Positions 56,329 through 57,965 of a stretch of DNA of 57,965 nt are shown here, piece by piece. The position numbers are program-made. The DNA is from Escherichia coli (GTDB taxonomy: Bacteria; Pseudomonadota; Gammaproteobacteria; Enterobacterales; Enterobacteriaceae): assembly GCF_003334765.1 (NCBI RefSeq), contig NZ_QOWT01000026.1. One strand, given 5' to 3'. Numbering within the stretch: position 1 is the stretch's first letter; the number at the start of each line of letters is the position of its first letter.

Positions 56329-57965
56329 TCACGACGAATAACCTGACCGTAACAGTTATTTGAACGAATGCGGCAATCGCGTCCGCCATCCTTAATCCAC
56401 CAGCGAATCGCTTCGCATGCACCTTTACGATCACCAGCATTCAGCCGCTTATAAAACGTCGACGGGAAACACTTACCGGGGCCAATGTTATAGGGACAAA
56501 ATGACGCGATACCCGCTTTTTGTGGTTCGGTCAGTGGTACTTTAATATTGCGCTCCACCCATGCCAGCGCCTTATCACGCTCAATGGCGTTGACCTGGTC
56601 GCATTTTTCCTTCGACAGTTTCATATTGGGAAAAACGGTTTTTCCATCCACCACTGTGGCACCCCGACAGATGGTCCATATGCCAGAACCATCGCGGTAT
56701 GCCATTGTGTGGTTACCTTCTTTTTCGTCCAGAAACTGGTCAAGTATCTGAGGAGCAGATGCGCCAGCACCAATCAGCGCCAGAACGGCAGCCGACAGGC
56801 CGTATCTGATTTTTGTGTTCATAGATATTTATGATGAGGACGCTCGTGCTTATTGGCAGGATTTTCAATCTTAAAGGAGTACTGATGCTGCAGATAAGAC
56901 TCAACTTTTTCTGACAATTTTTCTGCTACTTCCAGGAAGACTTGCCGGACGCTCCTTCTGGCTGCTGCCTCATAAAACTCCAGCGCAGCTCCTTCAACAC
57001 GGTCCATGGCGACATCCAGGTCAAAAATTTCACCGTCAAAGCGTTCTTTGTCCTGTAAGGCTACAGTTACCGTAACTTTATTCTCAAAATTACGGACTCC
57101 TTTCACAACCAGTTCATAGTCTTGAGTCATTGGATTACTCTCCTCTCGCAGCCTTACGCCTGTCTTCTTTAATCTTGAAATAAAGATTTGTCAGATACGT
57201 CAGCAGGCCAAAAACCAGGCTACCCAGCACACCGATTGCAGCCCACTGTGACGGAGTTACTTTATCGAGTAACTGCAATGCCCAGAAACCAGCATTACCC
57301 GCCGATGTGCCATAGGCAACACCTGTTGTTAACTTATCCATTGATTTCATATCCTCACCCCGATGTACACGGATGGTGCAATATGTTTGAAAAGATCGGA
57401 GTCTACGGGGTAGTTTTGACAGCACACGTTGTTCTCAACGGCGCTAAAAAAACATACACATTAAAAATGTGGGTAATTATTTTGAAAGAAAGTCATATAT
57501 AAAATAATAATACGAGAAATGTTTTCATATTTAGTGTACTGTATACGGCCATTTATACAGGAAAAGCCTATGTCAGAACGTAAAAACTCAAAATCACGCC
57601 GTAATTATCTCGTTAAATGTTCCTGCCCAAACTGCACCCAAGAGTCAGAACACAGTTTTTCAAGAGTACAAAAAGGTGCCCTTTTGATCTGCCCTCATTG
57701 CAACAAAGTATTCCAGACAAATCTTAAAGCTGTAGCCTGATTGATTTTATTAGTAACAAGTATTTTTTATATTTTAATAATATATTTAAAGCAGATAATA
57801 AAAAACCCGCCTGAGCGGGTTTGAGATTGTGGTGCTTTTTGTGGGAGTCATCCACTTACGCACTTTGTTTTGCCATGCCAGCAGTTAGGGAAGGTGCGAA
57901 CAAGTCCCTGATATGAGATCATGTTTGTCATCTGGAGCCATGGAACAGGGTTCATCATGAGTCAT

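What the first reader, a model, noticed from the sequence alone, without database searches (positions are those of the whole stretch)
57885..57965. Second IS5 end at the right edge, just beyond the Qin lysis cassette
Nt 57889-57965 are the same IS5 terminus in direct orientation, preceded by TTAG. It lies about 150 bp past the zinc-ribbon ORF and a minus-polarity terminator. In K-12 this position is followed by cspB/cspF and the late antiterminator gene as I recall, so this strain may have the Qin late region cut off from its upstream partners by IS5.
Basis: partly seen in the sequence, partly recalled or inferred. Interest (0 to 1): 0.45.

Follow-up and report, generated by a model that had tools for sequence, protein, structure and literature searches.

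The report
IS5 end at a contig boundary
The last 77 bases of the window are the start of the common E. coli mobile element IS5, inserted in a non-coding spacer of the defective Qin prophage, and the sequence stops there only because a short-read assembler cannot cross a repeated element; it is ordinary.

Summary
Window 57889-57965 is the first 77 nt of IS5: the left (IRL) end, with the 16-bp terminal repeat and the transposase ATG. It is preceded by TTAG, a typical IS5 target. The site corresponds to MG1655 1641120-1641123. That is 148 bp past ynfU, 215 bp past the cspB stop codon, and 539 bp upstream (in the late-transcript sense) of essQ.

The length of 77 nt is not biological. Window 1-77 is the exact reverse complement of the same 77 nt and belongs to a second IS5, in the last codons of ydeO. 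The window is therefore a whole short-read contig, broken at both ends in a collapsed IS5 repeat, most likely by a k=77 de Bruijn assembler. The two IS5 ends are inverted relative to each other.

Whether cspB really follows a complete IS5 here cannot be read from the window. The best analogue is strain Z226-5, which has a complete 1195-bp IS5 in the same orientation, 54 bp further right, with a TTAG duplication and then cspB.

Neither junction occurs in 5,426 complete E. coli genomes, so the insertion is rare. It remains a routine IS5 insertion in a decaying cryptic prophage. Interest is low.

The parts
57889..57965 (+). First 77 nt of IS5 (IRL end), running off the contig end
   Evidence: 100% identity to IS5 copies in many E. 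coli records. Identical to the start of the complete IS5 of Z226-5. One mismatch to MG1655 IS5A.
57889..57904 (+). 16-bp IS5 terminal inverted repeat GGAAGGTGCGAACAAG (IRL)
   Evidence: Read directly. The same 16-mer begins the annotated IS5A of MG1655.
57958..57965 (+). Start of the IS5 transposase gene (ATGAGTCA.., ins5A/insH), cut by the contig end
   Evidence: In Z226-5 the annotated IS5 transposase CDS starts 69 nt into the element, at the same ATGAGTCAT.
57885..57888 (+). TTAG target site of the IS5 insertion (MG1655 1641120-1641123)
   Evidence: MG1655 similarity ends exactly at this TTAG and continues natively as CTTCTGCTG. It fits the IS5 target YTAR (ISfinder, from my own knowledge).
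57803..57822 (-). Intrinsic-terminator-like hairpin (AAACCCGCTCAGGCGGGTTT + TTTATTAT) between the IS5 site and essQ
   Evidence: The only terminator-like site in 57100-57965. The same site is present in MG1655, at L003 26057-26038.
57570..57740 (+). ynfU, a 56-aa putative zinc-binding protein (CxxC...CxxC)
   Evidence: ORF listing. Annotated as ynfU in MG1655 and Z226-5. Coordinates mapped.
57135..57350 (-). essQ holin gene, first gene of the Qin lysis cassette
55795..57130 (-). ydfR, rrrQ (lysozyme) and rzpQ, the rest of the Qin lysis cassette
1..77 (-). The same 77-nt IS5 IRL end at the left contig edge, the exact reverse complement of 57889-57965
78..81 (+). CTAA target of the left IS5 (MG1655 1582934-1582937), inside the last codons of ydeO
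55..831 (-). ydeO with an IS5-derived tail: the last two residues (AI) are replaced by GKVRTSP, giving 258 aa
   Evidence: Translation. The same chimeric protein is on 9 public contigs.

Best explanation
This strain carries an ordinary copy of insertion sequence IS5. It transposed into a TTAG in the AT-rich ynfU-cspB spacer of the cryptic prophage Qin. Its left end (IRL) and transposase gene point away from the lysis cassette and towards cspB. Only 77 nt are visible because the window is a complete short-read contig. IS5 is multi-copy, so the assembler collapsed it, and each unique contig next to an IS5 ends with exactly one k-mer (k = 77) of the repeat. The opposite contig end stops in the same way, in a second, oppositely oriented IS5 inserted at a CTAA in the 3' end of ydeO.

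Shown: the identity of the sequence, the exact insertion site, the orientation, collinearity of everything between the two IS5 ends with K-12, and the identical 77-nt ends.

Inferred: the element is full length (1195 bp), is flanked by a second TTAG, and is followed by cspB/cspF/quuQ. Also inferred: its effect is, at most, to move the already silent lysis cassette 1.2 kb further from the Q gene and late promoter, and to separate cspB from the first strong downstream terminator.
For: The sequence matches IS5. Window 78-57888 is collinear with MG1655 1582934-1641123 at about 99.8% identity, and homology stops exactly at TTAG. Across complete genomes, matches to the flank also stop at 57888. Both contig ends are the same 77 nt, and identity stops at the IS5 tip plus the 4-bp target. 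A sister contig from another assembly, GCA_965137835.1, has the same ydeO junction and no mismatch over the 3754 bp of its adjoining sequence that were fetched. It ends after 121 nt of IS5, which looks like another k-mer size, so the truncation length follows the assembly and not the biology. None of the 9 public contigs with the ydeO::IS5 chimera exceeds 200 kb, which is consistent with short-read contigs breaking there. An independent analogue exists in Z226-5/-6: a complete 1195-bp IS5 in the same spacer, in the same orientation, with a TTAG duplication, followed by cspB. IS insertions of many families interrupt the Qin lysis region in other complete genomes.
Against: Nothing to the right of IS5 nt 77 is available, so completeness, the second TTAG and the identity of the following DNA are unobserved. 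The exact junction is absent from 5,426 complete E. coli genomes, from JGI metagenome contigs and from GTDB species representatives. The predicted far junction was not found either. No independent sequence therefore confirms a simple insertion at this exact site. That k = 77 is a default SPAdes k-mer comes from my own knowledge, not from a record of how the window was assembled.
Confidence: 0.8

Rival explanations
1. The IS5 junction is real, but the chromosome beyond it is rearranged. The two IS5 copies that bracket the window are inverted relative to each other, so homologous recombination between them (or with another IS5 copy) could have inverted the 57.8-kb ydeO-to-ynfU segment or deleted or translocated the adjoining DNA. 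In that case cspB does not follow this IS5.
For: The two IS5 ends are exact inverted repeats flanking 57,811 bp. The two target sites, TTAG and CTAA, are reverse complements, so an inversion would leave every junction looking like an intact target duplication. Short-read contigs cannot distinguish the two arrangements.
Against: There is no positive evidence. The segment contains dif (7894) and the TerC core (26309). From established knowledge of dif/KOPS polarity, inverting them is expected to be counter-selected. The analogous Z226-5 insertion is a simple one. A match of 4-bp targets within the YTAR consensus is expected about one time in four by chance.
Confidence: 0.12
2. The sequence is a truncated or solo IS5 end, a remnant left by an IS5-mediated deletion, not a full element.
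For: Only 77 nt are visible, so full length cannot be shown from the window.
Against: The contig stops at exactly the same IS5 nucleotide at both ends, as expected for a k-mer overlap with a repeat present at least twice. The 77 nt are intact, including the terminal repeat and the transposase start.
Confidence: 0.04
3. The sequence is an assembly chimera or contamination: the IS5 k-mer was attached to the Qin contig by misassembly and there is no IS5 at this site.
For: The junction is unique among the public sequences searched.
Against: The break falls precisely at a TTAG of the YTAR target type, with the exact IS5 tip abutting it. A random chimera would not produce this. The sister junction at ydeO recurs in 9 independent public contigs.
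Confidence: 0.02

Closest known systems
IS5 (ISfinder IS5; MG1655 IS5A/insH1, 1195 bp)
   Same: 76 of 77 nt are identical to MG1655 IS5A and 77 of 77 to other E. coli IS5 copies. It has the same 16-bp terminal repeat, the same transposase start 69 nt in, and a target of the YTAR type.
   Different: Only the first 77 nt are present in the window. IRR, the transposase body and the target duplication are unseen.
IS5 insertion between ynfU and cspB in E. coli Z226-5 / Z226-6 (NZ_CP159644.1, NZ_CP159641.1)
   Same: Same 363-bp spacer, same orientation (IRL towards ynfU/essQ), same TTAG target sequence. There the element is complete with a TTAG duplication, and cspB follows.
   Different: It is an independent event at a different TTAG (MG1655 1641174-77 against 1641120-23), 54 bp further right.
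IS5-mediated promoter activation (bglGFB, fucAO, glpFK, flhDC; from my own knowledge of the literature)
   Same: An IS5 landing in an AT-rich intergenic region (34% GC here).
   Different: Those cases sit a short distance upstream of a silent promoter. Here the element is 539 bp from essQ, with ynfU and a terminator in between, and lies downstream of cspB. Nothing suggests activation.
Repeat-induced contig ends in de Bruijn-graph assemblies (e.g. SPAdes k=77; from my own knowledge)
   Same: Both contig ends carry exactly 77 nt of the same repeat. A sister assembly carries 121 nt.
   Different: The assembler and its settings for this window are not documented.

Membership tests
IS5 (IS5 family, IS5 group) | 16-bp terminal inverted repeat GGAAGGTGCGAA(C/T)AAG at the element tip | tested here: met
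   IRL is present at 57889-57904. IRR is not in the window.
IS5 (IS5 family, IS5 group) | Near-identity of the internal sequence to reference IS5 | tested here: met
   77/77 to the Z226-5 IS5 and 76/77 to MG1655 IS5A. Only nt 1-77 can be tested.
IS5 (IS5 family, IS5 group) | Insertion at a YTAR tetranucleotide with a 4-bp target duplication | tested here: inconclusive
   The target TTAG fits YTAR and is single-copy in MG1655 at this position. The second copy would lie beyond the contig end.
IS5 (IS5 family, IS5 group) | Full length of 1195 bp encoding the DDE transposase InsH/Ins5A | not testable with these tools
   Only ATGAGTCA of the gene is present (57958-57965). Searches for the far junction found nothing.
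Qin cryptic prophage late/lysis region | Gene order cspI-rzpQ-rrrQ-ydfR-essQ-ynfU, collinear with and near-identical to K-12 | tested here: met
   Window 52619-57888 is 99.77% identical to MG1655 1635855-1641123. Annotation.
Qin cryptic prophage late/lysis region | cspB, cspF and quuQ (ydfT) following ynfU | not testable with these tools
   True in MG1655 and Z226-5. In this strain the sequence ends in IS5.
Assembly contig boundary at a collapsed repeat | Both contig ends terminate in the same repeat with an overlap equal to a k-mer length | tested here: met
   1-77 is the reverse complement of 57889-57965, and identity ends at the IS5 tip plus the 4-bp target. The related contig ends with 121 nt of IS5.

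The most novel reading that the evidence does not exclude
The two oppositely oriented IS5 copies bracket a 57.8-kb piece of the replication terminus that carries dif and TerC. In this lineage the segment might be inverted or invertible by IS5-IS5 recombination, which would flip dif/TerC polarity relative to the replichores. Alternatively it might behave as a giant IS5 composite element. The window cannot exclude either possibility, because recombination inside IS5 leaves all junction sequences unchanged.
Probability: 0.04. Interest if true: 0.4.

Novelty: already known. Interest (0 to 1): 0.06.

Why it matters
It matters little. The result marks a strain-specific IS5 insertion that can serve as a lineage marker. 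It also explains why the contig stops at this point. For the scan, the useful lesson is that identical 77-nt repeat fragments at both ends of a window are a signature of a short-read contig boundary, not of a truncated element. If the insertion is simple, the only plausible biological consequences are two. The Qin lysis genes are moved 1.2 kb further from their Q-dependent late promoter, and cspB is separated from the first strong downstream terminator. Both effects fall in an already defective prophage.

Tried and rejected
- I looked for the exact right junction in 5,426 complete E. coli genomes. None has it. Only Z226-5/-6 cover the query, and their IS5 is 54 bp away.
- I tried to recover the source or sister contigs through junction-spanning ORFs. 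The 36-aa ORF across the near junction and the 44- and 49-aa ORFs predicted across the far junction are not on record.
- The 26-aa ORF that gene callers do call at IS5 ends stops in the TSD. It is the same at every TTAG-flanked IS5, so it is not site-specific.
- Exact-pattern scans found nothing: the predicted far junction in metagenome contigs gave 0 hits, and the near junction gave 0 hits in both metagenome contigs and GTDB genome contigs.
- Literature searches for IS5 with cspB/Qin/essQ and for ynfU found nothing relevant. One paper reports only a low-frequency ynfU/cspB intergenic SNP.
- The Rfam scan of 55000-57965 found only the cspA-type thermoregulator upstream of cspI. The hits near the terminator (Trp leader, P9, isrK at 18-22 bits) are far below gathering scores. 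I treat them as matches to a generic terminator hairpin.
- I considered IS5-mediated activation of essQ and rejected it on distance and the intervening terminator.

Full report
**Observation**

The last 77 bases of the window (57889-57965) read GGAAGGTGCGAACAAG...ATGAGTCAT and are preceded by TTAG.
- With the TTAG, these 81 nt match at 100% in many E. coli records at places annotated 'IS5-like element IS5 family transposase'. In all, 1,527 of 5,426 complete genomes have a match.
- The 77 nt are identical to the start of a complete 1195-bp IS5 in strain Z226-5.
- They differ by one base (A54G) from MG1655 IS5A/insH1.
- A 41-nt probe from this end is found twice in the window, against 0 expected by chance.

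**What the 77 nt mean**

The second match of the probe is at the very left edge of the window. Window 1-77 is the exact reverse complement of 57889-57965. Identity stops at the IS5 tip plus the 4-bp target: CTAA on the left and TTAG on the right, which are themselves reverse complements.

Two ends that stop at exactly the same IS5 nucleotide, 77 nt in, are what a de Bruijn-graph assembler leaves when a unique contig runs into a collapsed multi-copy repeat. From my own knowledge, 77 is a default final k of SPAdes.

A sister contig from another public assembly supports this. GCA_965137835.1 contig CBCSCR010000031.1 (54,027 bp) carries the identical ydeO::IS5 junction, with no mismatch over the 3754 bp of adjoining sequence that were fetched. 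It ends after 121 nt of IS5, not 77. The truncation length follows the assembly, not the biology.

The window is therefore a whole short-read contig bounded by two IS5 copies. The two copies are inverted relative to each other, so 'direct orientation' holds only in the sense that the right copy reads forward on the + strand.

**Genomic context**

Window 78-57888 is collinear with MG1655 1582934-1641123. Identity is 99.86% over 52 kb and 99.77% over the last 5.3 kb. The only non-matching block is at 52216-52618, in the tail-fibre remnant.

The strain is therefore close to K-12 but is not K-12.

The right IS5 sits after MG1655 1641123, at a TTAG (1641120-23). In MG1655 this TTAG is single-copy and is followed by CTTCTGCTG. 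The site is:
- 148 bp past the ynfU stop codon;
- 215 bp past the stop codon of the convergent cspB gene (1641339-1641554);
- 539 bp from the essQ start codon.

In MG1655 the next genes are cspB, cspF, ynfS, ydfT (quuQ, antiterminator Q) and ydfU.

TTAG fits the YTAR target preference of IS5 (ISfinder, from my own knowledge), and the spacer is AT-rich at 34% GC.

**Is it a complete, simple insertion followed by cspB?**

This cannot be read from the window.

Indirect evidence favours it. Strains Z226-5 and Z226-6 carry an independent, complete 1195-bp IS5 in the same spacer. It is in the same orientation, at another TTAG 54 bp further right (1641174-77), has a TTAG duplication, and is followed by cspB/cspF/ydfT.

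IS elements of many families (IS1, IS3, IS4, IS5 family, IS30, IS200) interrupt the Qin lysis region in other complete genomes. This is the expected decay of a cryptic prophage.

I could not find the exact junction anywhere else:
- none of 5,426 complete E. coli genomes has it;
- exact-pattern scans of JGI metagenome contigs and GTDB species representatives gave 0 hits for the near junction;
- the predicted far junction gave 0 hits;
- look-ups of ORFs predicted to span either junction found nothing.

The insertion is therefore rare, and probably specific to one lineage.

**Likely consequences (inference)**

The Qin late transcript runs leftwards (minus strand). It starts from a promoter-like site just downstream of ydfT (L003 27458-27429), passes cspB, and reaches essQ-ydfR-rrrQ-rzpQ. 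The IS5 lies in this path, so it physically separates the lysis cassette from Q and the late promoter by about 1.2 kb.

Whether this uncouples them is doubtful. Q-modified RNA polymerase of lambdoid phages reads through terminators (established knowledge). Qin is in any case defective.

A second possible effect concerns cspB. In MG1655 the only strong intrinsic-terminator-like site downstream of cspB on its own strand is the hairpin at L003 26057-26038, which is window 57822-57803. Only a weak candidate lies before it. The IS5 therefore lies between cspB and what may be its terminator.

Neither effect is shown.

**Rivals**

Because the two IS5 copies are inverted, recombination between them could invert the 57.8-kb segment without changing any junction sequence. 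Short reads cannot exclude this.

There is no positive evidence for it, however. The segment carries dif (7894) and the TerC core (26309), and inverting them should be disfavoured. I give this reading about 0.12.

A truncated solo end and an assembly chimera are both unlikely. The ends show identical k-mer behaviour, the IS5 tip abuts a YTAR site precisely, and the sister junction recurs in nine public contigs.

**Comparison and verdict**

This is IS5, a known element, doing a known thing: inserting at YTAR in AT-rich intergenic DNA of a cryptic prophage. It is seen through a known artefact, a contig break at a repeat.

The membership features that can be tested are met: the terminal repeat, sequence identity over nt 1-77, and the type of target. 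Full length, IRR, the transposase and the target duplication lie beyond the contig end.

Nothing resembles the IS5 promoter-activation cases (bgl, flhDC, glpFK, fucAO), given the distance from essQ and the intervening terminator.

- Novelty: already known.
- Interest: about 0.06.

Noticed in passing
window 1-831: A second IS5, with its IRL end facing inwards, is inserted at CTAA in the last codons of ydeO, the acid-stress AraC-type regulator. It replaces the C-terminal residues AI with GKVRTSP, giving 258 aa. This exact chimeric protein is on 9 public contigs, none longer than 200 kb, so a lineage carrying this insertion is represented in public data only by fragmented assemblies.
   Followed up: partly
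L005 1382-2581 (E. coli B27, NZ_AP027424.1); also MB30, NZ_CP073968.1: A different IS5-family element, ISKpn26, sits at exactly the same CTAA in ydeO, in the same orientation, with a CTAA duplication. I confirmed this in the fetched B27 locus and infer it for MB30 from an identical hit. The 3' end of ydeO looks like a recurrent target for IS5-type elements. Four further genomes (H84-H87) match from window position 62, so they carry the 16-bp IS5-type repeat next to the same CTAA.
   Followed up: partly
window 7894-7921 (-) and 26309-26318 (+): The chromosome dimer resolution site dif and the TerC core (GTTGTAACTA) both lie inside the 57.8-kb segment bracketed by the two inverted IS5 copies.
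   Followed up: no
window 52216-52618: This is the only block not alignable to MG1655. About 403 bp replace 781 bp of the stfQ tail-fibre remnant. ORFs there encode His/Ala/Gly-rich tail-fibre-like repeats. Z226-5 has yet another variant of the region.
   Followed up: partly
window 55193-55578 (-): An Rfam cspA thermoregulator (RF01766, 112.8 bits, above the gathering score) covers the 5' leader and the start of cspI. This is expected for a cold-shock gene carried on Qin.
   Followed up: no
L003 26242-26192 (-), MG1655 about 1641192-1641242, just beyond the window's right end: Between cspB and the IS5 site, MG1655 has a very strong Shine-Dalgarno sequence (TAAGGAGGT) 8 nt before an ATG. The ATG opens an 11-codon ORF (MKQWLAYLAKS) on the cspB/late-transcript strand. 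It is not annotated in the record.
   Followed up: no
L004 3755-3875 (GCA_965137835.1 contig CBCSCR010000031.1): The sister contig ends after 121 nt of IS5 where the window ends after 77 nt. This is consistent with a different assembler k-mer and is a useful control for recognising contig-end artefacts.
   Followed up: yes
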